Positions 1-9,186 of a stretch of 15,838 nt of DNA are shown here, piece by piece. Source of the DNA: a virus. Taxonomy: Duplodnaviria > Heunggongvirae > Uroviricota > Caudoviricetes. The stretch is from the IMG/VR virus record IMGVR_UViG_2724679293_000012; one strand, written 5' to 3'. The first letter of the stretch is position 1; every line of letters begins with the position of its first letter. Under the pieces are notes generated by a model. It did not search any database. It saw only the letters and a list, made by a program, of their open reading frames with translations, and was not told where the DNA came from. The position numbers were made by a program, and so were the translations under genes.

Positions 1-123
1 AAGACCTGGAAGGGACCGGCAATCAGCTACATCGGGCGCGATGAACTTGAGGCATGTGGTGAGGCCTTTCTGGCGCAGGTTCGCCAGCAGGCGGAAAAAC
101 TGGTCAGGGAGATGGCGGCATGA
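1..123 (+). CDS. 3' end of an upstream phage gene of unknown function (5'-truncated by the window edge)
   Basis: Frame starting at position 1 is open for 40 codons (KTWKGPAISYIGRDELEACGEAFLAQVRQQAEKLVREMAA) and stops at TGA 121-123, overlapping the next ATG (ATGA). The six-frame ORF 41..388 is in another frame and looks spurious. Confidence 0.4.
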   Translation, partial: KTWKGPAISYIGRDELEACGEAFLAQVRQQAEKLVREMAA

Positions 124-446
124 CGACGTTAACTCAATGCCAGCAGCAGGTGCTGGATATGCTGATTTCTTACCAGAAAGAGCGTGGCTTTCCGCCAACC
201 AATCAGGAGGTGGCAACCATGCTGGGATATCGTTCAGTGAATGCAGCGGTGGAGCATCTTCGCGCACTGGAGAAAAAAGGCGTCATCACGATAAAGCGTG
301 GTGTGGCCCGGGGGATAACGCTTCATACCGCGGTGAAGGACGACGACAGCGAGGCGGTCGGGATTATCCGCTCACTGCTTGCCGGTGAGGAAAACGCCAG
401 GCTGCGTGCAGCCCACTGGTTACATGAGAGGGGTCTGAAAGTATGA
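120..446 (+). CDS. LexA N-terminal-like winged-helix DNA-binding protein (no peptidase domain)
   Basis: 108 aa; N-terminus MTTLTQCQQQVLDMLISYQKERGFPPTNQEVATMLGYRSVNAAVEHLRALEKKGVI matches the LexA DNA-binding domain pattern. Too short to carry the S24 peptidase domain. Start overlaps the upstream stop; stop overlaps the rusA start (ATGA at 443-446). Confidence 0.7.
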   Translation: MTTLTQCQQQVLDMLISYQKERGFPPTNQEVATMLGYRSVNAAVEHLRALEKKGVITIKRGVARGITLHTAVKDDDSEAVGIIRSLLAGEENARLRAAHWLHERGLKV

Positions 447-832
447 AGCTGATTCTGCCTTTCCCGCCCAGCGTGAACACGTACTGGCGACACCCCAACA
501 AAGGGGCGTTTGCAGGTAAGAGCCTGATAAGCGCGGCGGGGCGCAAATTCCAGAGCGCGGCGTGTGCAGCAATAGTTGAGCAGTTACGTCGTCTGCCAAA
601 ACCAACGTCGGCACCTGCTTCAGTGGAGATCGTGTTGTTTCCTCCGGATAACCGGATCCGCGATCTGGACAACTATAACAAGGCGCTGTTTGACGCCCTG
701 ACCCACGCGGGTGTGTGGGAAGACGACAGTCAGGTGAAAAGAATGCTGGTGGAGTGGGGACCGGTTATCCCGGAAGGGAAGGTCGAGATCACTATCAGTA
801 AGTACGAGAAAACGGCGGGTGCAGCCGCCTGA
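443..832 (+). CDS. rusA: Crossover junction endodeoxyribonuclease RusA (Holliday junction resolvase)
   Basis: 129 aa; conserved RusA pattern (LPFPPSVNTYWRH, DNRIRDLDNYNKALFDALTHAGVWEDDSQV) alignable with E. coli RusA; usual position in the lambdoid nin region upstream of Q. Confidence 0.85.
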   Translation: MKLILPFPPSVNTYWRHPNKGAFAGKSLISAAGRKFQSAACAAIVEQLRRLPKPTSAPASVEIVLFPPDNRIRDLDNYNKALFDALTHAGVWEDDSQVKRMLVEWGPVIPEGKVEITISKYEKTAGAAA

Positions 833-851
833 TTAAGAGGAGAAACGAAGT

Positions 852-1649
852 ATGAATAATCTGATGGTCATTGATGGTATTGAAGTTCGTCGTGATGCTT
901 ATGGTCGTTACAGCCTGAACGATCTGCACAGGGCTGCCGGTTCTCTGGATAAGCATAAGCCTGCATTCTGGCTCCGCAATGAGCAAACTGAGCGTTTAAT
1001 AAGCGAGTTGCAGATTTGCAACTCGGTCAATATAGAGCCAGTTAACGTTATTCGTGGCGGAAATAACCAGGGGACGTATGTCTGCAAAGAACTGGTGTAT
1101 GCCTATGCAATGTGGATCAGCCCGTCATTCCATCTGAAGGTGATCCGTACTTTCGACATGGTAACCAGCGCACCGGAAAAATTATCCGAACAGGCTGCTG
1201 ACAAGATGCAGGCTGGTGTGATTCTGCTGGACTTTATGCGCCGGGAGTTAAATCTGTCTAACTCTTCAGTGCTTGGAGCCTGTCAGAAACTTCAGGAGGC
1301 TGTTGGCTTACCGAATCTGGCACCGCGCTATGCCATTGATGCTCCTGCTGATGCGCCTGATGGCTCAAGCCGCCCCACGCTGTCGCTGAGTGCACTGCTG
1401 AAACAGTATGGTATCCGCCTGACGGCTAATCAGGCATATCACCAGATGGTGAAGCTGGGGATCGTTGAACAACGCGAACGATACAGCCGTACCGCGATTA
1501 ACAACATCAAAAAATTCTGGTCGCTGACGGCGAAAGGCTGCATGTTCGGCAAGAACATCACCAGTCCTGCAAATCCACGCGAGACGCAGCCGCATTTCTT
1601 CGAATCCCGATTCCCTGAGCTGTTAAAGCTGCTCGATACCGTTCATTGA
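852..1649 (+). CDS. KilA-N domain DNA-binding protein (Roi-like)
   Basis: 265 aa; N-terminus MNNLMVIDGIEVRRDAYGRYSLNDLHRAAG fits the KilA-N fold signature. Good SD (AAGAGGAG) upstream. Position between rusA and Q matches roi-type genes of lambdoid phages. Confidence 0.7.
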   Translation: MNNLMVIDGIEVRRDAYGRYSLNDLHRAAGSLDKHKPAFWLRNEQTERLISELQICNSVNIEPVNVIRGGNNQGTYVCKELVYAYAMWISPSFHLKVIRTFDMVTSAPEKLSEQAADKMQAGVILLDFMRRELNLSNSSVLGACQKLQEAVGLPNLAPRYAIDAPADAPDGSSRPTLSLSALLKQYGIRLTANQAYHQMVKLGIVEQRERYSRTAINNIKKFWSLTAKGCMFGKNITSPANPRETQPHFFESRFPELLKLLDTVH

Positions 1650-1650
1650 G

Positions 1651-2646
1651 GTGACCGTGAGAGCACTACTGACCCCTGAAATTGCCCCGCGTATGGGGAT
1701 CGTATTGTTCAGGCCAGGTTCAGAGCTGATGCCCTTGTTTATGCAGGGGCGTGTCCTGCTGGAGCCTGAGCCGGAACGTTATTCATCTTTCGCCAGTGGT
1801 GCCGTTCCGGCGGCATCACAACCGCTGGCGGATGATCCTGTCGTTCGGGCCGTGTTCCGCAATGAGGCAGTGATCCGTCGTGCTGGTGGCGTGGAATGCC
1901 TTGAAAGCTGGTTACTTCGTGAAAAGGGCTGTCAGTGGCCTCATTCCGACTGGCACAGCGAGAACATGACCACAATGCGACACGCGCCGGGCGCAATCCG
2001 TCTGTGCTGGCACTGCGATAACCAGCTGCGTGATCAGTTCACGGAACGGCTGGAGTCAATGGCAACGGATAACTGTGCCCGCTGGGTGTTGTCTGTCGTG
2101 CGTCGGGATCTCGGTTTTGATGACAGTCACGTTGTGACAATGCCGGAACTGTGCTGGTGGCTGATTCGTAATGATCTGGCGGATGCCTTACCGGAAAGTG
2201 CAGCCCGTAAGGCACTGAGATTACCGAAGCCTGTTGTGCCGTCTGTCACCCGGGAAAGTGACCTTGTGCCTTCGGTTCCTGCCACCAGCATCATCCAGGA
2301 TAAGGCAAAAAAGGTGCTGGCGCTGAAAGTGGATCCGGAGTCGCCGGAGTCTTTTATGTTACGCCCAAAACGTCGCCGCTGGGTTAATGAAAAGTACACG
2401 CGATGGGTTAAGACGCAGCCGTGCGCATGTTGTGGAAAACCTGCTGATGATCCCCACCACCTGATAGGTCACGGTCAGGGTGGAATGGCTACAAAAGCGC
2501 ATGACCTCTTTGTGTTGCCTTTGTGCAGAAAGCATCACGACGAGCTGCATGCGGATACCGTGGCATTTGAAGAGAAGTATGGCTCCCAGCTGGAGCTGAT
2601 ATTTCGTTTTATCGATCGTGCACTGGCAATTGGCGTGCTGGCCTGA
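1651..2646 (+). CDS. DUF968-family protein (YdfU-like), Cys/His-rich C-terminus
   Basis: 331 aa ORF immediately upstream of Q, as ydfU lies next to the Q homolog in the E. coli Qin prophage. C-terminal motif CACCGKPADDPHHLIGHGQGG...LCRKHHDELH. Track start is GTG at 1651; the real start may be an internal ATG (1693 or 1729). Confidence 0.65.
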   Translation: MTVRALLTPEIAPRMGIVLFRPGSELMPLFMQGRVLLEPEPERYSSFASGAVPAASQPLADDPVVRAVFRNEAVIRRAGGVECLESWLLREKGCQWPHSDWHSENMTTMRHAPGAIRLCWHCDNQLRDQFTERLESMATDNCARWVLSVVRRDLGFDDSHVVTMPELCWWLIRNDLADALPESAARKALRLPKPVVPSVTRESDLVPSVPATSIIQDKAKKVLALKVDPESPESFMLRPKRRRWVNEKYTRWVKTQPCACCGKPADDPHHLIGHGQGGMATKAHDLFVLPLCRKHHDELHADTVAFEEKYGSQLELIFRFIDRALAIGVLA

Positions 2647-2663
2647 TTTTGTGGAGAAAGTTG

Positions 2664-3005
2664 ATGCGTGATATGTATGAAGTATTGGACCGCTGGGGTG
2701 CATGGGCTGCAGCAGATAACAGTGGTGTGGACTGGCAGCCTGTTGCTGCAGGGTTTAAAGGTTTACTACCTCATGGAAAGAAAACACGCCAACAATGCGA
2801 TGATGATGAAGGAATCATGATTGACAGCTGTGTTGCGCGATTGCGGAAATATAAGCCCGAAGAGTATGAGTTGGTTATTGCTCATTTTGTTATCGGCATC
2901 TCACTAAGAACTATTGCAAAGAAGCAGAAGTGTTCTGATGGGACAATAAGAAAAGAGTTGCAAACAGCTCTTGGTTTTCTGGATGGTGTGCTTTCAATGT
3001 TGTAA
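2664..3005 (+). CDS. Late-gene antitermination protein Q (phage 82/21-type Q family)
   Basis: Conserved N-terminal motif MRDMYEVLDRWGAWAA and overall resemblance to QuuD-type Q proteins of E. coli prophages. ATG at 2664 has a GGAG SD 8 nt upstream; the track ORF begins at an upstream TTG (2649). Confidence 0.85.
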   Translation: MRDMYEVLDRWGAWAAADNSGVDWQPVAAGFKGLLPHGKKTRQQCDDDEGIMIDSCVARLRKYKPEEYELVIAHFVIGISLRTIAKKQKCSDGTIRKELQTALGFLDGVLSML

Positions 3006-3010
3006 TATTA

Positions 3011-3037
3011 GGGGGAATTACCCCCCTTTTTTTCTCT
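3011..3037 (+). terminator. Rho-independent terminator just after Q (hairpin GGGGGAATTACCCCCC plus T-run)
   Basis: Near-perfect GC hairpin followed by TTTTTTT on the + strand, 6 nt after the Q stop. The hairpin also contains the stop codon of the convergent minus-strand gene 3018..3566. Confidence 0.6.
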
Positions 3038-3566
3038 GTTGCTTTAATAAAATTTTAATATTTTGTCTGATTATGATGAGGCAATGTAATAAAAGAAATA
3101 CCGTTAGTATTGCAAGCCATACGCAAAATAAGCATGCATATAAATTAGTTGAAAGTCCAATAGTGAATTGTGCAATTGCTGTTGTGATAGAACATAATAT
3201 TGATGTATTAATAAATGAGGATAAATTGTCTAAAGGTTTATAAAGTACACTATCATTGATTTTGTCAATAGGTATACCAGTGGCAATGCTATAAATTTCC
3301 TTATATTCCTGAGTTGCAAAAACCTTATCGCGTAAATTTATTATGACAAAGGTATGCAGGCTCAATAAAAATGAGCCCACGGAAATAAAACCGGAGAAGA
3401 GATAGCCTCGTAAGTTTTTATGATAAAACTCAAAAAAGTTAACACTTACTTTAGGTGTGTTTCTGTACAATAGGTAAAGTGCAAGCAATGCCAGGATCGA
3501 GAATGCAAGCAGTGTAAGGTACTGATACCTCAATCTTTTATTTATTAGCCATTCATATAAAGGCAT
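3018..3566 (-). CDS. Small four-helix membrane protein of unknown function (candidate membrane effector of a two-gene cassette)
   Basis: 182 aa; four hydrophobic helices (about residues 15-34, 53-76, 116-140, 141-165) and a basic tail RQNIKILLKQQRKKGG. Strongly AT-rich, Asn/Ile/Lys/Leu-rich composition unlike the flanking phage genes. Second gene of a minus-strand pair. Confidence 0.6.
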   Translation of the reverse strand: MPLYEWLINKRLRYQYLTLLAFSILALLALYLLYRNTPKVSVNFFEFYHKNLRGYLFSGFISVGSFLLSLHTFVIINLRDKVFATQEYKEIYSIATGIPIDKINDSVLYKPLDNLSSFINTSILCSITTAIAQFTIGLSTNLYACLFCVWLAILTVFLLLHCLIIIRQNIKILLKQQRKKGG

Positions 3567-3662
3567 TTTTATTCGTCCCGTTCAGCATTTCTTCTTTTAT
3601 CATATCAAAAACAGGGTTTGTTGTATAATTATCGTTTGTCAATCCATTGACTTTATCGGCAA

Positions 3663-4478
3663 TTATATCGAAATCGTATGTTTCAAAAAAACAGGGCAGT
3701 TCATAAAATCAATGGTTTTTTCTATTCCTGCATGGTTTACTGCAATAACCTGTGCTTTAGCAACTCCACTCATAGAATTATAAATATTTGAAAGATTCTG
3801 AGATAGTTGTTGCACTTTTGTTCTGTCGCTAGAATTAAAATTCATATCTATTGTGGTGGTGTTAACAAATTGTTCAAGCGCAGTCATTGGTCCACCTTTA
3901 AAATCTATATAATTAAATTTAAAGCTTGTGCTTTTAATCTCTTTGAATTGACATAAAACACTCTGAATGTTGTTTTTATTTGTCATAAGGCTGAAAGTCA
4001 GTCTTTCTTTGTATTTTTTATTTATTGCAGTTACTTCTTTTTGTTTTGGTTTATCACCAAGTTTTTTTATTTCTTCTTTATTTTGATTTCTGATAAATTC
4101 ATTACTTATTGTTTCTAAATGAGAAAAGAGAGTGTTCAGACTGCATGAACCGTGGTGATACATATAGAGACCAGAAAGATTAGATTTTTTAATTAAGAAA
4201 AAGTTGAAATTAGCAAGTTTGTCACTTCCTTGAAGATCTTCAATTTTAAGCTGGAATTTACCATCAACAAATTGCGACTTACAGTTCTTTTTTTGGTTTC
4301 TGAATGTGACAACTAATCCATAATAGAAATCATTCACATCCGAAATGAGAATTTTACGAGTATAGTCTGTGCGACTGTGTTCTCTGTTTGATGCGTTGAT
4401 AAAAGCATTCATTACGTCAACGGTATTAATATTTTTGTTATTGTTATTTATTGTAAATCCTATGCTTCTAACTTTCAT
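3663..4478 (-). CDS. Hypothetical soluble protein, AT-rich foreign gene (first gene of a two-gene cassette)
   Basis: 271 aa ORF, Asn/Lys/Ile-rich, no transmembrane segments and no motif I recognise (no clear Walker, nucleotidyltransferase GS..DxD or HEPN Rx4-6H). Same strand as the membrane gene with a 96 bp gap. Confidence 0.6.
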   Translation of the reverse strand: MKVRSIGFTINNNNKNINTVDVMNAFINASNREHSRTDYTRKILISDVNDFYYGLVVTFRNQKKNCKSQFVDGKFQLKIEDLQGSDKLANFNFFLIKKSNLSGLYMYHHGSCSLNTLFSHLETISNEFIRNQNKEEIKKLGDKPKQKEVTAINKKYKERLTFSLMTNKNNIQSVLCQFKEIKSTSFKFNYIDFKGGPMTALEQFVNTTTIDMNFNSSDRTKVQQLSQNLSNIYNSMSGVAKAQVIAVNHAGIEKTIDFMNCPVFLKHTISI

Positions 4479-4744
4479 GTGTATTCCAGGACCGACTAAA
4501 GATAGCGAGAATGGGGACGCATAGTTTATAAAAATCCTAACGCGTACGCAAAAAGTATTATATCGTGTTAAGAGTGGTTACTTCGCCACACAACTTAAAC
4601 CCGCCGCTGAGCGGTTTTTTGTACCTGTAAACCTTGTGCAGTACAGTAAACACGCTGGTGGTCGTGAATACTGGCTTTTTATCTTGCTGGCTTTTTAGAC
4701 AAGAGTTATTGGTATGTCACGTTAACCGGAAAGGGTAAAAAGAC

Positions 4745-4942
4745 ATGCTGAAACAGCAGGATATGACAGAAACCGCCAGAGTTGTGTTTGATGAATTAAG
4801 CGTTACCGAACCGGCGACAGTCGGGGAGATTGCGCAGAATACTTACCTTTCACGCGAACGCTGCCAGTTAATACTGACCCAGCTTGTTATGGCGGGTCTG
4901 GCAGACTATCAGTGCGGTTGTTACAGACGCCTTCAGTCCTGA
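4745..4942 (+). CDS. Small winged-helix regulator, FaeA/PapI-like
   Basis: 65 aa; pattern TVGEIAQNTYLSRERCQLILTQLVMAGL resembles the PapI/FaeA wHTH core. ATG at 4745 with a purine-rich SD. Divergent from the minus-strand cassette across a ~265 bp intergenic region. Confidence 0.5.
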   Translation: MLKQQDMTETARVVFDELSVTEPATVGEIAQNTYLSRERCQLILTQLVMAGLADYQCGCYRRLQS

Positions 4943-5075
4943 AGGCTTTTTATTTGTGGTGAATGGGCGGCTGGTGGGGGGCGACACCTGTCAGTCCTTT
5001 GCTTATGTGTTGATGATAATTTACCTTTTGGGGCTATAATTGAGCTAACCAATTGCTAATGAAAGTAAAATTATA

Positions 5076-5647
5076 ATGGCTGTTGTCTGTTCAGTTATCA
5101 TGGTTTGCTCCCCAATTAATATTTTTCTTGAAAAGGATACGTTGTCACTTAAGCCAGGCTCAGTTGTTCTGGCCACCAAATGCATCAGGGAGCTTTTCCT
5201 TATGCATTATGGCAAAGTTAAAATTGTNNNNNNNNNGAGGCCACGGATATGTTTCTTATGATGGCCTGCCTGTCTCTGTTTGAAACAGATGAACGGATGT
5301 CATTGTTTTTAAGTGGATGTTTATCCAGCATAAGTGTCAAAGTCAGGGCGATAATTCAGACAGATATATCAGCAAGCTGGACGCTTGGTGCGATTGCTCT
5401 ACAGTTGCATATGAGTGAGAGTTTGTTAAAGACAAAACTGAAAAATGAAGGGGGCATGTTCAGTCGCTTGTTGCTGGAAGAGCGGATGCGTGTTGCTGTA
5501 AATATGTTATGTTCCCGGTATGGATATGGACAGGCTGTAGCAGAAAAATGCGGTTATTCAAGCAGGTCCTACTTTATTTCTGTATTTCACCGCTATTATG
5601 GCTTCCCGCCAGACAGATATGTATCCAGGCAAGGGCTTGATTATTGA
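5076..5647 (+). CDS. AraC-family transcriptional regulator (Rns/CfaD/PerA-like), interrupted by an assembly gap
   Basis: C-terminal part (frame of 5249..5647) has a classic AraC HTH: SWTLGAIALQLHMSESLLKTKLKNEGGMFSRLLLEERMRVAVNMLCSRYGYGQAVAEKCGYSSRSYFISVFHRYYGFPP. N-terminal part (5076..5227, other frame) has ELFLMHYGKVKI, alignable with the Rns N-domain. The halves are separated by NNNNNNNNN, so length and frame across the gap are unknown. TATAAT at 5035-5040 upstream. Confidence 0.7.
5228..5236. other. Run of 9 N (assembly gap of unknown true length) inside the AraC-like gene
   Basis: Literal n characters in the sequence; reading frame differs on the two sides. Confidence 0.95.
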
Positions 5648-5675
5648 TTTTCATCTGATTATTATTTTTTGGCTC

Positions 5676-5751
5676 GGCCCTTTAGCTCAGTGGTGAGAGC
5701 GAGCGACTCATAATCGCCAGGTCGCTGGTTCAAATCCAGCAAGGGCCACCA
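5676..5751 (+). tRNA. ileZ: tRNA with CAU anticodon, tRNA-Ile2 (lysidine) type
   Basis: Cloverleaf folded by hand: acceptor GGCCCTT/AAGGGCC, D-arm GCTC..GAGC, anticodon loop CTCATAA, T-loop TTCAAAT, terminal CCA. Closely resembles E. coli ileX from memory. Confidence 0.85.
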
Positions 5752-5760
5752 TATCAGATA

Positions 5761-5837
5761 CCGCCATTAGCTCATCGGGACAGAGCGCCAGCCTTCGAAG
5801 CTGGCTGCGCGGGGTTCGGGTCCCCGATGGCGGTCCA
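5761..5837 (+). tRNA. argN: tRNA-Arg, anticodon read as UCG
   Basis: Cloverleaf: acceptor CCGCCAT/ATGGCGG, anticodon stem CCAGC/GCTGG with loop CTTCGAA, T-loop TTCGGGT, terminal CCA. Second member of the tRNA triplet. Confidence 0.8.
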
Positions 5838-5850
5838 TTATTGGTATTCA

Positions 5851-5927
5851 GCGTTGTTAGCTCAGCCGGACAGAGCAATTGCCTTCTAAGCAATCGGTCA
5901 CTGGTCCGAATCCAGTACAACGCGCCA
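5851..5927 (+). tRNA. argO: tRNA-Arg, anticodon UCU (reads rare AGA)
   Basis: Cloverleaf: acceptor GCGTTGT/ACAACGC, anticodon stem ATTGC/GCAAT with loop CTTCTAA (as in E. coli argU), T-arm ACTGG/CCAGT, terminal CCA. Confidence 0.85.
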
Positions 5928-6213
5928 CACCACACTTATCTGCCCTGACTCTCTTTTTCGGGCTTTTTATTACAGGAAAGACACCGGGCAGTGAAATGTT
6001 AAATGCCTCACAATTCAGGCAGTTGACTGTTGCCTGACATGCTGAGCGTTTGTTAAAAAAATCCTGCATGATGAATCCCCCTGGGCGGCGGGGCATAATG
6101 ACAGATGTTTGGTTGCGTATTGTATAGGCAAGTTGCGGATTCTGTCTGGTCATTGCAGAATTCACCGGGAGGCACCCGGCATCATGCTGTATACAGAGAT
6201 TAGGCATATATCC

Positions 6214-6240
6214 AGGCTCCTCATCGCAGGAGCCTTTTTA
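6214..6240 (+). terminator. Rho-independent terminator downstream of the tRNA cluster
   Basis: 8 bp stem AGGCTCCT/AGGAGCCT, loop CATCGC, followed by TTTTTA. Confidence 0.55.
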
Positions 6241-6245
6241 CATGC

Positions 6246-6270
6246 AAAAAAAGCCCGAGTAGGTTCGGGC
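6246..6270 (-). terminator. Minus-strand rho-independent terminator (convergent with the previous one)
   Basis: Hairpin GCCCGA-GTAGGT-TCGGGC preceded on the + strand by AAAAAAA, i.e. hairpin plus U7 on the minus strand. Confidence 0.5.
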
Positions 6271-6330
6271 AACAGCATGAGATACTTGCATTGTCATTTT
6301 TATCGTGTGGATTTTAACCAGGGTTTATAA

Positions 6331-6457: not shown

Positions 6458-7453
6458 ATGGCATTTAAACACTATGACGTGGTCAGGGCGGCGTCGCCGT
6501 CAGACCTTGCTGAACGACTGACACAAAAACTGAAGGAGGGGTGGCAGCCATTTGGCAGCCCGGTGGCCATCACGCCTTATACTCTGATGCAGGCCATTGC
6601 GGCGGAAGGTGATGTCACCACACCTGTGTTGGTGAAGCCGTCGGATGGAGAAGGCACAGTAATCAGCGCCACCAGAGACCCGGAGTATTACTTTGTTGTG
6701 GTTCTGGCGGGGCAGTCAAACAGCATGGCATATGGTGAAGGCCTTCCGCTGCCGGAGACATATGACCGTCCGGACCCGCGCATTAAGCAGCTGGCGCGTC
6801 GCAGTACGGTGACACCGGGCGGTGTCGCCTGTAAATATAACGACATCATTCCGGCGGACCATTGTCTGCATGATGTGCAGGACATGAGCCGCCTTAACCA
6901 TCCGAAAGCGGACCTGTCAAAGGGGCAGTACGGAACCGTGGGGCAGGGGCTGCATATCGCCAAAAAACTGCTGCCGTTTATACCGGCGAATGCGGGCATT
7001 CTGCTGGTTCCGTGCTGTCGTGGTGGTTCAGCGTTCACCACCGGAGCTGATGGCACATACAGTGACGCGAGTGGTGCTTCGGAGAATTCAACCCGCTGGG
7101 GTGTGGACAAGCCGCTGTATAAGGACCTTATCGGTCGAACAAAAGCAGCACTGAAGAAGAACCCGAAAAATGTGCTGCTTGCCGTGGTGTGGATGCAGGG
7201 GGAATTTGATTTTGGCGGTACGCCTGTAAATCACGCAGCACAGTTTGGTGCGCTGGTTGATAAATTCCGTGCAGACCTGGCGGATATGGCAGGTCAGTGC
7301 GTCGGTGGCTCTGCTGGCGGTGTTCCCTGGATATGTGGAGATACGACGTATTTCTGGAAGCAGAAGAACGAATCCACGTACCAGACGGTGTACGGCAGCT
7401 ATAAAAACAAAACGGAAAAGAATATCCATTTCGTACCGTTCATGACNCAGTAA
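6458..7453 (+). CDS. nanS: NanS-p-like prophage sialate O-acetylesterase, N-terminal part (frame broken by the tandem duplication)
   Basis: Strong SD GGGAGG before the ATG; SGNH/SASA-type motif VVLAGQSNSMAYGEGLP; position (after tRNAs, before lysis genes) matches nanS-p of Stx phages. The ORF stops at 7453 only because the 791 bp duplication (791 mod 3 = 2) shifts the frame. Confidence 0.7.
   Translation: MAFKHYDVVRAASPSDLAERLTQKLKEGWQPFGSPVAITPYTLMQAIAAEGDVTTPVLVKPSDGEGTVISATRDPEYYFVVVLAGQSNSMAYGEGLPLPETYDRPDPRIKQLARRSTVTPGGVACKYNDIIPADHCLHDVQDMSRLNHPKADLSKGQYGTVGQGLHIAKKLLPFIPANAGILLVPCCRGGSAFTTGADGTYSDASGASENSTRWGVDKPLYKDLIGRTKAALKKNPKNVLLAVVWMQGEFDFGGTPVNHAAQFGALVDKFRADLADMAGQCVGGSAGGVPWICGDTTYFWKQKNESTYQTVYGSYKNKTEKNIHFVPFMXQ
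6657..7447. repeat. Copy 1 of an exact ~791 bp direct tandem duplication inside the esterase gene
   Basis: Identical to 7448..8238 over the full length; antisense ORFs 6688..7110 and 7479..7901 in the track are identical at offset 791. Boundaries approximate within 2-3 nt. Confidence 0.9.
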
Positions 7454-8238
7454 TCAGCGCCACCAGAGACCCGGAGTATTACTTTGTTGTGGTTCTGGCG
7501 GGGCAGTCAAACAGCATGGCATATGGTGAAGGCCTTCCGCTGCCGGAGACATATGACCGTCCGGACCCGCGCATTAAGCAGCTGGCGCGTCGCAGTACGG
7601 TGACACCGGGCGGTGTCGCCTGTAAATATAACGACATCATTCCGGCGGACCATTGTCTGCATGATGTGCAGGACATGAGCCGCCTTAACCATCCGAAAGC
7701 GGACCTGTCAAAGGGGCAGTACGGAACCGTGGGGCAGGGGCTGCATATCGCCAAAAAACTGCTGCCGTTTATACCGGCGAATGCGGGCATTCTGCTGGTT
7801 CCGTGCTGTCGTGGTGGTTCAGCGTTCACCACCGGAGCTGATGGCACATACAGTGACGCGAGTGGTGCTTCGGAGAATTCAACCCGCTGGGGTGTGGACA
7901 AGCCGCTGTATAAGGACCTTATCGGTCGAACAAAAGCAGCACTGAAGAAGAACCCGAAAAATGTGCTGCTTGCCGTGGTGTGGATGCAGGGGGAATTTGA
8001 TTTTGGCGGTACGCCTGTAAATCACGCAGCACAGTTTGGTGCGCTGGTTGATAAATTCCGTGCAGACCTGGCGGATATGGCAGGTCAGTGCGTCGGTGGC
8101 TCTGCTGGCGGTGTTCCCTGGATATGTGGAGATACGACGTATTTCTGGAAGCAGAAGAACGAATCCACGTACCAGACGGTGTACGGCAGCTATAAAAACA
8201 AAACGGAAAAGAATATCCATTTCGTACCGTTCATGACC
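7448..8238. repeat. Copy 2 of the ~791 bp tandem duplication; junction base 7447 is N
   Basis: Same as above; the single ambiguous base sits exactly at the copy junction. Confidence 0.9.
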
Positions 8239-9186
8239 GATGAGAACGGGGTGAATGTGCCGACGAACAAACCGGAAGAAGACCCGGACATTCCGGGTAT
8301 CGGATATTACGGTTCGAAATGGCGTGACAGCTCAGCCACCTGGACGTCACAGGACAGGGCGAGCCATTTCAGCGCCTGGGCACGCCGTGGGATTATTTCC
8401 GACCGTCTGGCAACGGCGATTTTGCGCCATGCGGGAAGAGTGGCGCTAAACGCGGGGGCATCATCGACAGTATCAGAGGTGCGCCCGTCATCGCCTTCCG
8501 GTGCAGAAGCCACAGGCGTCACAACACTGCTCTCTTACCTTGCCAGCGAGTCAGAGGGAAGCCTGAAAGTACAGGGATGGTCAGCCAGTGGCGGCAGGGC
8601 AGAAGTGGTCAGCGATGCGGAGGGAACCGGAGGTAAGGCAGTGAAGCTGACCAAGGAAGCCGGTAAAAGCAGCTGGGTGCTGGAGTACGCCGCGGGCAAC
8701 GGTGCGGCTCTGTTACAGAAAGGGGGGCAGATTCGCTGCCGCTTTAAGGTTTCGGGAGCGCTGGCTGCGAACCAGTATGTTATGGCGTTTTACTGGCCGG
8801 TATCTTCACTGCCACAGGGCGTTGCCCTGACCGGAGACGGGGGGAATAACCTGCTGGCAGCGTTCTACATCCAGACAGATGCAAAAGACCTGAATGTGAT
8901 GTACCACAATGCGAAAGTGGCGACAAACAACCTGAAACTGGGAACCTTTGGCGCATTTGATAACGAATGGCATACGCTGGCTTTCCGCTTTGCCGGGAAT
9001 AACAGCCTTCAGGTGACGCCGGTTATTGATGGTCAGGATGGCACACCGTTCACGCTGACGCAGTCACCGGTCAGTGCATTTGCGGCGGATAAACTGCATG
9101 TGACAGACATTACCAGAGGTGCGACTTACCCGGTGCTGATTGACAGCATTGCGGTGGAAGTGAACAGCACAGACACTGCGGCATGA
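7489..9186 (+). CDS. nanS: NanS-p-like esterase, esterase core plus C-terminal carbohydrate-binding-like domain (frame is open back to about 7448)
   Basis: 565 aa ORF whose first ~250 aa repeat the end of the previous ORF. Collapsing the duplication gives one continuous in-frame ORF 6458..9186 of about 645 codons. Confidence 0.75.
   Translation: MVLAGQSNSMAYGEGLPLPETYDRPDPRIKQLARRSTVTPGGVACKYNDIIPADHCLHDVQDMSRLNHPKADLSKGQYGTVGQGLHIAKKLLPFIPANAGILLVPCCRGGSAFTTGADGTYSDASGASENSTRWGVDKPLYKDLIGRTKAALKKNPKNVLLAVVWMQGEFDFGGTPVNHAAQFGALVDKFRADLADMAGQCVGGSAGGVPWICGDTTYFWKQKNESTYQTVYGSYKNKTEKNIHFVPFMTDENGVNVPTNKPEEDPDIPGIGYYGSKWRDSSATWTSQDRASHFSAWARRGIISDRLATAILRHAGRVALNAGASSTVSEVRPSSPSGAEATGVTTLLSYLASESEGSLKVQGWSASGGRAEVVSDAEGTGGKAVKLTKEAGKSSWVLEYAAGNGAALLQKGGQIRCRFKVSGALAANQYVMAFYWPVSSLPQGVALTGDGGNNLLAAFYIQTDAKDLNVMYHNAKVATNNLKLGTFGAFDNEWHTLAFRFAGNNSLQVTPVIDGQDGTPFTLTQSPVSAFAADKLHVTDITRGATYPVLIDSIAVEVNSTDTAA

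What the first reader, a model, noticed from the sequence alone, without database searches (positions are those of the whole stretch)
4745..5647. Prophage-borne regulator pair: FaeA/PapI-like wHTH plus Rns-like AraC regulator
The AraC-like protein aligns with the Rns/CfaD/PerA virulence-regulator subfamily in both the HTH domain and the N-domain fragment, and sits next to a PapI/FaeA-like small regulator. Phage-carried AraC regulators can rewire host virulence or acid-resistance regulons. The ATG at 5076 gives an N-domain about 40 aa shorter than Rns, and a stop at 5046-5048 blocks upstream extension.
Basis: partly seen in the sequence, partly recalled or inferred. Interest (0 to 1): 0.55.

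Follow-up and report, generated by a model that had tools for sequence, protein, structure and literature searches.

The report
Known prophage regulator PsrB, plus neighbour
The AraC-type gene is a near-identical copy of psrB, an already studied prophage regulator that switches on E. coli acid-resistance genes and turns down type III secretion; the small gene beside it is a common phage gene of unknown function, not its dedicated partner.

Summary
Both ORFs exist at the stated coordinates. The 9-N run (5228-5236) stands for 151 bp in four complete E. coli genomes that match its flanks 100%. With it restored, ATG 5076 to stop 5647 is one intact 237-aa AraC/XylS protein. The "short N-domain" is mostly a gap artefact.

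That protein is 235/237 identical to O157:H7 Sakai ECs_2191 and 90% identical to ECs_1087 (PsrA). O157:H7 has two copies, so this is PsrB. PsrB is published as an activator of gadE/hdeA that indirectly represses the LEE type III system.

Its full-length core-genome relatives are GadW (35%) and YdeO (31%). Rns aligns only over the DNA-binding half.

The 65-aa ORF is a real gene (dN/dS 0.04-0.15) with a generic winged-helix signature. It is not a FaeA/PapI member: there is no PF04703 hit, while PapI itself scores 2.4e-31.

This small gene occurs about three times as often as psr in E. coli. In SfV, phiP27, cdtI, phiNP and a Klebsiella phage a DNA methylase follows it instead. A terminator hairpin and a promoter-like site separate the two genes. 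The psr cassette (about 5012-5665) replaces the methylase.

Verdict: already known, low interest.

The parts
4745..4942 (+). 65-aa winged-helix-like phage gene (PHROG 331, function unknown). It is the orthologue of SfV orf47, phiP27 L23, cdtI orf55 and phiNP_036.
   Evidence: ORF and translation. PHROG 331 at 6e-37. Weak wHTH Pfam hits in the query (TrmB 0.003), stronger in relatives (DprA_WH 1.3e-08). dN/dS 0.04-0.15. AlphaFold2 model pLDDT 78, with best Foldseek matches to wHTH domains of IclR, LexA, IscR and Z-alpha, none significant.
4929..4955 (+). Intrinsic-terminator-like hairpin (GCCTTCAG-TCCT-GAAGGC, then TTTTTATTT) overlapping the stop codon of the small ORF.
   Evidence: Pattern scan. 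RNA fold -10.5 kcal/mol, z -2.9. The outer stem (GCCTTC/GAAGG) is conserved in SfV, phiP27 and the Stx2k phage.
5013..5040 (+). Sigma-70 promoter-like site (ATGATA, 16 nt spacer, TATAAT; 10 of 12 matches) at the very start of the psr-specific cassette, 36 nt upstream of the ATG.
   Evidence: Alignment A5 shows that sequence shared with methylase-carrying phages ends at about 5010. The psr-carrying loci (window, Stx2k phage, Sakai Sp4) share the sequence from there on, including TATAAT.
5076..5647 (+). psrB-type AraC/XylS regulator gene. True length is 714 bp (237 aa). Here it is interrupted by the N run.
   Evidence: Window-encoded residues 1-50 and 102-237 are identical to WP_000301787.1. 235/237 identical to Sakai ECs_2191 and 90.3% to ECs_1087 (PsrA).
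5228..5236 (.). Run of nine N that stands for 151 bp (codons 51-101 of the regulator).
5676..5927 (+). ileZ (CAT anticodon), argN and argO tRNA genes. They mark the 3' boundary of the psr cassette.
   Evidence: Homology with phiP27, which carries a methylase in place of psr, resumes about 10 nt before ileZ.
4598..4675 (+). Two weaker terminator-like hairpins (4603-4615, 4654-4675) at the start of the sequence block that is conserved with SfV, phiP27 and the Stx2k phage and carries the small ORF.
   Evidence: The first corresponds to the 'putative rho-independent terminator' annotated after Q in SfV.

Best explanation
The AraC-type gene is an orthologue of psrB (prophage-encoded secretion regulator B) of enterohaemorrhagic E. 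coli. It is a GadW/YdeO-like AraC/XylS activator carried as a self-contained cassette with its own promoter. The cassette sits in a lambdoid prophage between the Q antiterminator region and the ileZ-argN-argO tRNA genes.

By homology to the published protein, it is made in the lysogen and binds the gadE and hdeA promoters. It raises GadE/YhiF and glutamate-dependent acid resistance, and through GadE it lowers LEE type III secretion.

The 65-aa gene upstream is a separate, widespread phage gene of unknown function with a winged-helix-like fold. It belongs to a conserved block downstream of Q. The slot after that block holds a DNA methylase in some phages and the psr cassette in others. The two genes are neighbours by position, not a dedicated pair.

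Shown here: the identity, the intactness in reference genomes, the cassette boundaries, and the independent distribution of the two genes. Inferred: promoter use, DNA targets and phenotype.
For: Gap and intactness:
- The N run equals 151 bp and the ORF is an intact 237 aa in JB2, one of four complete genomes that match the window flanks 100%.

Identity:
- 235/237 identical to Sakai ECs_2191, 90.3% to ECs_1087 and 35.7% to the PatE candidate ECs_0287.
- ECs_1087 is named psrA in PMC13502914.
- The reviews state that PsrB is PsrA's closest homologue at 90% identity.
- O157:H7 genomes hold exactly two copies, and the better one is 99.2% identical in DNA to this gene.

Synteny:
- The order Q, small ORF, AraC, ileZ/arg tRNAs, esterase is the same in Sakai Sp4 and Sp11.

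Family:
- Pfam HTH_AraC and HTH_18 are above threshold.
- Full-length similarity to GadW, YdeO and the NCBIfam YdeO model.

Cassette:
- The 5' boundary is at about 5012 with a promoter-like site. The 3' boundary is just before ileZ.

Small ORF independence:
- 4059 places for the small ORF against 1324 for psr.
- A methylase is its downstream neighbour in five phages from four host genera.
- A terminator lies between the two genes.

Function:
- Taken from the reviews PMC10877973 and PMC8565820, which cite Tree 2011 and Yang 2015.
Against: - The 151 bp hidden by the N run were not seen for this genome, so a lesion there cannot be excluded.
- The equation ECs_2191 = Z2104 (PsrB) is deduced from copy number and percent identity. 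It was not read from a locus-tag table. The primary papers (Tree 2011, Yang 2015, Bender 2012) and the EDL933 record with Z tags were not available.
- The promoter and terminator are consensus matches only.
- In at least 96% of psr-carrying genomes the small ORF is the upstream neighbour (698 of 727 records). Some functional coupling is therefore not excluded.
Confidence: 0.88

Rival explanations
1. The two genes are a functional regulator pair. The small winged-helix protein would control psrB expression, or act as a co-regulator of PsrB in the way PapI assists Lrp.
For: The small ORF directly precedes psr in Sakai Sp4, Sakai Sp11, the Stx2k phage and the window. In 698 of 727 psr-carrying records at least one copy has the joint arrangement. 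Both proteins look like DNA binders.
Against: - The small ORF is three times as frequent as psr.
- It keeps the same position in front of a DNA methylase in SfV, phiP27, cdtI, phiNP and Kp4866-6.
- A terminator hairpin and a cassette-specific promoter-like site separate the genes.
- At the psrA locus of Sakai the small ORF carries a 1-bp deletion that rewrites its C-terminus. Yet psrA is the copy with the clear deletion phenotype.
- There is no FaeA/PapI membership.
Confidence: 0.07
2. The AraC gene is a disrupted pseudogene in this particular genome, with the lesion hidden by the N run.
For: - The window as written is out of frame across the gap.
- The same window has other assembly or sequence defects. 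One is an exact 790-bp duplication around a single N. Another is two 1-bp indels relative to JB2, one of which frameshifts a neighbouring gene.
Against: - All 186 window-encoded codons on either side of the gap are identical to the intact reference protein.
- The frame offset is exactly what a 151-bp stretch replaced by 9 N produces.
- Every one of the 727 records with the gene holds a place that covers at least 80% of it.
Confidence: 0.04
3. It is an Rns/CfaD/PerA-type virulence activator that directly switches on fimbrial or LEE genes.
For: Rns and CsvR are significant PDB sequence matches (E 7e-16 and 2.5e-14). All of these proteins are AT-rich-DNA-binding AraC members that counter H-NS (general knowledge).
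Against: - The Rns match covers only residues 110-230, the linker plus the DNA-binding domain.
- The N-terminal domain aligns with GadW and YdeO instead.
- The GadX DNA-binding domain scores higher than Rns.
- The published effects of PsrA/PsrB on the LEE are repressive and indirect, through GadE.
Confidence: 0.02

Closest known systems
PsrB (Z2104, OI-57 of EDL933; ECs_2191 on Sakai prophage Sp11) and PsrA (Z1789; ECs_1087 on Sp4)
   Same: 235/237 aa identical to ECs_2191 and 90.3% to ECs_1087. The length is the same (237 aa). The position is the same, between the small ORF and ileZ on a lambdoid prophage.
   Different: Two substitutions (A103V, V135A). The first lies in the part hidden by the gap and is inferred from JB2. 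The host is not O157: the genomes that match 100% are JB2, DEC9B, F2_407_2_2 and 7_33_46A.
GadW / YdeO / GadX (core-genome AraC/XylS regulators of the E. coli acid fitness island)
   Same: Full-length homology to GadW (35% over 234 aa, E 3e-40) and YdeO (31%, E 1e-33). 41% identity to GadX over the C-terminal 129 aa. The published targets are shared (gadE, hdeA).
   Different: Only 31-35% identical. Far below the NCBIfam equivalog cut-offs (105.7 bits against 348 for YdeO). Phage-borne rather than chromosomal.
PatE (Z0321, OI-8) and AppY (DLP12): other prophage-encoded AraC-like activators of acid resistance
   Same: The same idea: a prophage AraC/XylS member plugged into the AR2/GadE network. 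35.7% identity to the Sakai Sp1 candidate ECs_0287.
   Different: Distant paralogues in different prophage contexts. ECs_0287 was taken to be PatE from its position in Sp1, and this was not verified.
Rns / CfaD / CsvR (ETEC fimbrial activators)
   Same: AraC/XylS family. Significant similarity over the linker and the DNA-binding domain (E 7e-16).
   Different: No detectable N-domain alignment. Rns is 265 aa. The regulon is different.
PapI / FaeA family (PF04703), for the 65-aa ORF
   Same: A small stand-alone protein of similar size. The helix register of a winged-helix core can be aligned (hhalign probability 58%).
   Different: No PF04703 hit at E<=10, while PapI scores 2.4e-31. 21% identity over 39 aa, E 0.42. 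PapI is not among the top 50 Foldseek PDB matches. The C-terminal 'wing' region is modelled as a low-confidence helix. The genomic context is a phage late region, not a fimbrial operon.

Membership tests
Psr (prophage-encoded secretion regulators PsrA/PsrB) | Close sequence identity to PsrA/PsrB (the two are about 90% identical to each other) | tested here: met
   99.2% (235/237) to Sakai ECs_2191 and 90.3% to ECs_1087 (named psrA in PMC13502914)..
Psr (prophage-encoded secretion regulators PsrA/PsrB) | Encoded only on prophages, in the late regulatory region | tested here: met
   The window is a lambdoid prophage: RusA, KilA-N, DUF968, Q, then tRNAs, holin and lysozyme. The gene order matches Sakai Sp4 and Sp11..
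Psr (prophage-encoded secretion regulators PsrA/PsrB) | Activates gadE/yhiF/hdeA, raises acid resistance and indirectly represses type III secretion | not testable with these tools
   Known only from the literature on the O157 proteins, as summarised in PMC10877973 and PMC8565820.
AraC/XylS family | C-terminal DNA-binding domain of about 100 aa with two helix-turn-helix motifs | tested here: met
   Pfam HTH_AraC 2.9e-13 (50 bits, cut-off 26.6) and HTH_18 2.4e-09 (37.8 bits, cut-off 33.6) over residues 155-230..
GadW/YdeO/GadX clade of AraC/XylS | Homology over the whole length, including the N-terminal domain | tested here: met
   GadW aligns over query residues 1-230 (35%, E 3e-40). YdeO aligns over 1-233 (31%, E 1e-33). 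The NCBIfam YdeO model matches residues 1-229. All are below the equivalog cut-offs, so this is a relative, not an orthologue..
Rns/CfaD/PerA subfamily | Homology in both the DNA-binding domain and the N-terminal domain | tested here: not met
   phmmer against PDB Rns chains aligns only residues 110-230 (E 7e-16). The N-domain is not aligned. The GadX DNA-binding domain scores higher..
FaeA/PapI family (Pfam PF04703), for the 65-aa ORF | Match to the FaeA profile | tested here: not met
   No hit at E<=10 for the window protein. PapI of CFT073, run as a positive control in the same call, gives 2.4e-31. FaeA is not among the families matched by 26 relatives..
FaeA/PapI family (Pfam PF04703), for the 65-aa ORF | Located in a fimbrial operon control region, divergent from a papB-like gene | tested here: not met
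   It lies downstream of phage Q, in front of psr or a DNA methylase..
Winged helix-turn-helix superfamily, for the 65-aa ORF | Three-helix core with a recognition helix, followed by a beta-hairpin wing | tested here: inconclusive
   - The query has only sub-threshold Pfam hits (TrmB 0.003).
- Relatives reach DprA_WH 1.3e-08.
- The AlphaFold2 model (pLDDT 78) has the three-helix core. The top Foldseek matches are wHTH domains, but with E>=0.39.
- The C-terminal part is modelled as a low-confidence helix, not a wing.

The most novel reading that the evidence does not exclude
The 65-aa winged-helix-like protein (PHROG 331, uncharacterised) might be a dedicated regulator of the cargo slot immediately downstream of it. 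That slot holds either a Dam-like DNA methylase or the psr cassette. The protein would tie expression of that cargo, and hence PsrB output and host acid resistance and type III secretion, to the state of the phage late region.

The evidence does not exclude this. The small gene is conserved under strong purifying selection across E. coli, Shigella, Citrobacter and Klebsiella phages, always directly upstream of that slot.
Probability: 0.08. Interest if true: 0.4.

Novelty: already known. Interest (0 to 1): 0.12.

Why it matters
It matters little as a discovery. PsrA and PsrB were described in 2011-2015 as prophage regulators that hijack the GAD acid-stress system and damp type III secretion in EHEC. 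This window holds a 99%-identical copy.

The practical value is corrective. The apparent truncation and frameshift is an assembly gap. RefSeq names the gene only 'helix-turn-helix domain-containing protein', and it can be named psrB. The neighbouring small ORF should not be annotated as PapI/FaeA-like.

There is one modest by-product. The psr cassette occupies exactly the slot that holds a DNA methylase in related phages, behind a conserved small gene of unknown function.

Tried and rejected
- The primary papers could not be read: Tree 2011, Yang 2015 and Bender 2012. Function rests on two reviews and one 2026 paper.
- The EDL933 record with Z locus tags (NC_002655) is not in the collection. 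Z2104 = ECs_2191 was therefore deduced, not looked up.
- A PDB sequence search with the small ORF gave no match even at E<=10.
- Foldseek on its model gave no match at E<=0.001, only generic wHTH domains.
- A profile search of 1.84 billion representatives found only 88 relatives, all of the same small phage family, and no bridge to a named family.
- PADLOC gave nothing for the AraC protein or for the two minus-strand genes, and only a marginal SWIM_XIII hit (E 0.0034) for the small ORF. It is not a known defence system.
- I considered whether the small ORF resembles a restriction-modification controller protein, because a methylase follows it in other phages. I rejected membership. From my own knowledge, controller proteins are Xre-type HTH proteins. 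This protein matches winged-helix profiles only, and no restriction gene is present.
- I looked for the late promoter upstream of the small ORF. The consensus scan found none there, so how the small ORF is transcribed is left open.
- HnrS, the sRNA reported to raise psrA expression, was not traced in this window.

Full report
**1. What is in the sequence**

Window 4745-4942 (+) is a 65-aa ORF. An ATG at 5076 opens an ORF whose C-terminal part ends at the stop at 5645-5647. Nine N occupy 5228-5236. Read straight through the N run, the two halves are out of frame.

Three tRNA genes follow at 5676-5927: CAT (annotated ileZ in RefSeq), argN and argO.

**2. The gap**

Window 4500-5950 matches four complete E. 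coli chromosomes at 100% on both sides of the N run: JB2, F2_407_2_2, DEC9B and 7_33_46A. The matched stretch there is 142 bp longer. Alignment with JB2 shows that the nine N replace 151 bp.

With these restored the gene is 714 bp and encodes an intact 237-aa protein, WP_000301787.1. All 186 codons that the window does encode (residues 1-50 and 102-237) are identical to that protein.

The 'N-domain about 40 aa shorter than Rns' is therefore mostly missing sequence. At 237 aa the protein is ordinary for its relatives: GadW is 242 aa and YdeO is 253 aa.

**3. Identity of the AraC-type protein**

Family assignment:
- Pfam HTH_AraC and HTH_18 are above their gathering scores over residues 155-230.
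- Against NCBIfam the only full-length match is the YdeO model (residues 1-229, 2.9e-30, far below the equivalog cut-off). GadX, HilD and others match the C-terminal half only.
- Pairwise, GadW gives 35% identity over 234 aa (E 3e-40) and YdeO gives 31% over the full length (E 1e-33). GadX gives 41% over the C-terminal 129 aa.
- Against PDB sequences, the GadX DNA-binding domain is best (2e-18). Rns follows (7e-16), but only over residues 110-230.

The protein therefore belongs with the GadW/YdeO acid-resistance regulators, not with Rns/CfaD/PerA.

Match to the O157:H7 Sakai genes:
- ECs_1087 on prophage Sp4 sits in the same arrangement: Q, small ORF, AraC, ileZ-argN-argO, esterase. Read from its upstream ATG, it is 237 aa and 90.3% identical to the window-type protein.
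- ECs_2191 on Sp11, next to ileZ5/argO5, is 235/237 identical.
- PMC13502914 names ecs1087 psrA.
- The reviews PMC10877973 and PMC8565820 state that PsrB (z2104, OI-57) is PsrA's closest homologue at 90% identity.
- ECs_1087 and ECs_2191 are 90.7% identical to each other.
- O157:H7 genomes hold exactly two copies, and the better one is 99.2% identical in DNA to this gene.

The window gene is thus a psrB orthologue. The Sakai Sp1 candidate for PatE (ECs_0287) is only 35.7% identical.

**4. How it works (from the literature, not tested here)**

The following comes from the reviews, which cite Tree et al. 2011 and Yang et al. 2015:
- PsrA and PsrB raise GadE (YhiE) and YhiF and so indirectly repress LEE type III secretion.
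- PsrB binds the hdeA (-132 to -45) and gadE promoters.
- PsrB increases survival at pH 2.5-3.5 and passage through the mouse stomach.
- psr genes occur only on prophages, together with effector loci and Pch regulators.

This concept extends to PatE and AppY.

**5. Anatomy of the cassette**

I aligned the window with SfV, phiP27 and phage phiSTEC1575-Stx2k.
- A conserved block starts at a terminator hairpin (window about 4598; annotated as a terminator after Q in SfV). It runs through the small ORF to about 5010.
- From about 5012 the psr-carrying loci (window, Stx2k phage, Sakai Sp4) share one sequence. SfV and phiP27 carry another, which leads into a DNA methylase gene.
- The psr-specific sequence opens with the best promoter-like site of the region: ATGATA, 16 nt, TATAAT, at 5013-5040, with 10 of 12 matches.
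- At the 3' end, homology between phiP27 and the window resumes about 10 nt before ileZ.

psr is therefore a discrete cassette of promoter plus gene, at window about 5012-5665 (about 800 bp when complete). It occupies the slot that holds an N6_N4 DNA methylase in other phages: SfV, phiP27, cdtI, Citrobacter phiNP and Klebsiella Kp4866-6.

A hairpin with a T tract overlaps the stop of the small ORF (4929-4946; -10.5 kcal/mol, z -2.9). Own-promoter expression in the lysogen is an inference. It is consistent with the published deletion phenotypes in uninduced lysogens.

**6. The 65-aa ORF**

It is a real gene.
- Profile search finds a compact family: 88 clusters at 50% identity among 1.84 billion representatives. 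The motif RCQLILTQLVMAGL is conserved down to about 35-40% identity.
- dN/dS is 0.04-0.15 against the close phage orthologues and 0.46 against the distant cdtI copy.
- PHROGs places it in phrog_331, function unknown. NCBI calls relatives 'TrmB family transcriptional regulator'.

Its fold looks like a winged helix, but only weakly.
- The query's own Pfam hits are sub-threshold winged-helix families (TrmB 0.003). Relatives reach DprA_WH 1.3e-08.
- An AlphaFold2 model (pLDDT 78) has a three-helix core plus a low-confidence C-terminal helix.
- Foldseek's best PDB matches are winged-helix domains of PcaR (IclR-type), LexA, IscR and Z-alpha. None is significant (E>=0.39), and PapI is not in the top 50.

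Direct test of the PapI/FaeA idea:
- PapI of CFT073 scores 2.4e-31 on Pfam FaeA. The window protein has no FaeA hit even at E<=10.
- BLASTP gives 21% identity over 39 aa, E 0.42.
- hhalign probability is 58%, aligning only the generic helix register.

The result is the same broad fold class and size as PapI, but not a family member.

**7. Pair or neighbours?**

In complete E. coli genomes the small ORF occurs at 4059 places in 2141 genomes. psr occurs at 1324 places in 726 genomes. In the phage collection the small ORF is in 55 records, and a close psr (92% identity) is in one.

Almost every psr genome has the joint arrangement (698 of 727 records). That follows from the slot being fixed behind the small ORF.

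At the psrA locus of Sakai, the small ORF has a 1-bp deletion that rewrites its C-terminus. Yet psrA is the copy with the clear deletion phenotype.

I conclude that the two genes are positional neighbours. I leave a small probability that the small protein regulates whatever sits in the slot.

**8. Verdict**

It is imprecise on subfamily and wrong on PapI/FaeA membership and on the 'pair'. The gene is the already characterised psrB. Novelty: already known. Interest: low.

**9. Things that led nowhere**

These are listed under Tried and rejected. The main limits are two. The primary Psr papers and the EDL933 Z-tag record were unavailable. The hidden 151 bp of this particular genome cannot be seen.

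Noticed in passing
window 6657-8237 (single N at 7447): An exact 790-bp direct duplication: 6657-7446 equals 7448-8237, separated by one N. It splits a SASA-family (nanS-p-like) esterase gene into two ORFs (6458-7453 and 7489-9186). The gene is a single 1938-bp gene in strain JB2. This looks like two overlapping contigs joined instead of merged.
   Followed up: yes
window 6037-6305: Two Rfam matches above their gathering scores lie just downstream of the tRNAs. STnc100 sRNA is at 6037-6245 (+), 175.6 bits. The anti-GcvB sRNA AgvB is at 6246-6305 (-), 56.2 bits against a cut-off of 56.
   Followed up: no
window 4598-5665; L003, L004, L011, L012, L013: The small ORF is followed about 150 bp later by an N6_N4 DNA methylase of about 1.05 kb in SfV, phiP27, cdtI, Citrobacter phiNP and Klebsiella Kp4866-6. 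The psr cassette replaces that methylase exactly, between about 5012 and the start of ileZ.
   Followed up: yes
window 3018-4478 (- strand): Two minus-strand genes lie between Q (2649-3005) and the small ORF. They have no Pfam or PADLOC match, and the larger one is phrog_2802, function unknown. Genes in the same position and orientation and of similar size (orf53, orf54) occur in phage cdtI; homology was not checked. In the window, the 308-aa gene is frameshifted near its C-terminus relative to JB2 by one of two 1-bp indels in window 1-5227.
   Followed up: partly
L002:28344-28583 (Sakai Sp4, ECs_1086): At the psrA locus of O157:H7 Sakai, the small ORF carries a 1-bp deletion that changes its last 16 or so residues and extends it to 79 aa.
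   Followed up: partly
window 5676-5751: ARAGORN calls this tRNA 'Met (CAT)'. RefSeq annotates the identical gene as tRNA-Ile (ileZ), presumably a lysidine-modified CAT anticodon.
   Followed up: no
L002:28804-29391, L007:333-920 (Sakai ECs_1087, ECs_2191): The Sakai annotation starts both psr genes at an internal Met (195 aa). The ORFs extend to an upstream ATG that gives 237 aa, as PGAP annotates in newer genomes. The first 42 residues align with GadW and YdeO, which favours the long form.
   Followed up: partly
L001:477-971 (JB2, just upstream of the window's left end): The same prophage in JB2 carries a PerC-family (Pch-like) regulator gene in its early region. This fits the published association of psr genes with Pch regulators. 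It lies outside the window.
   Followed up: no
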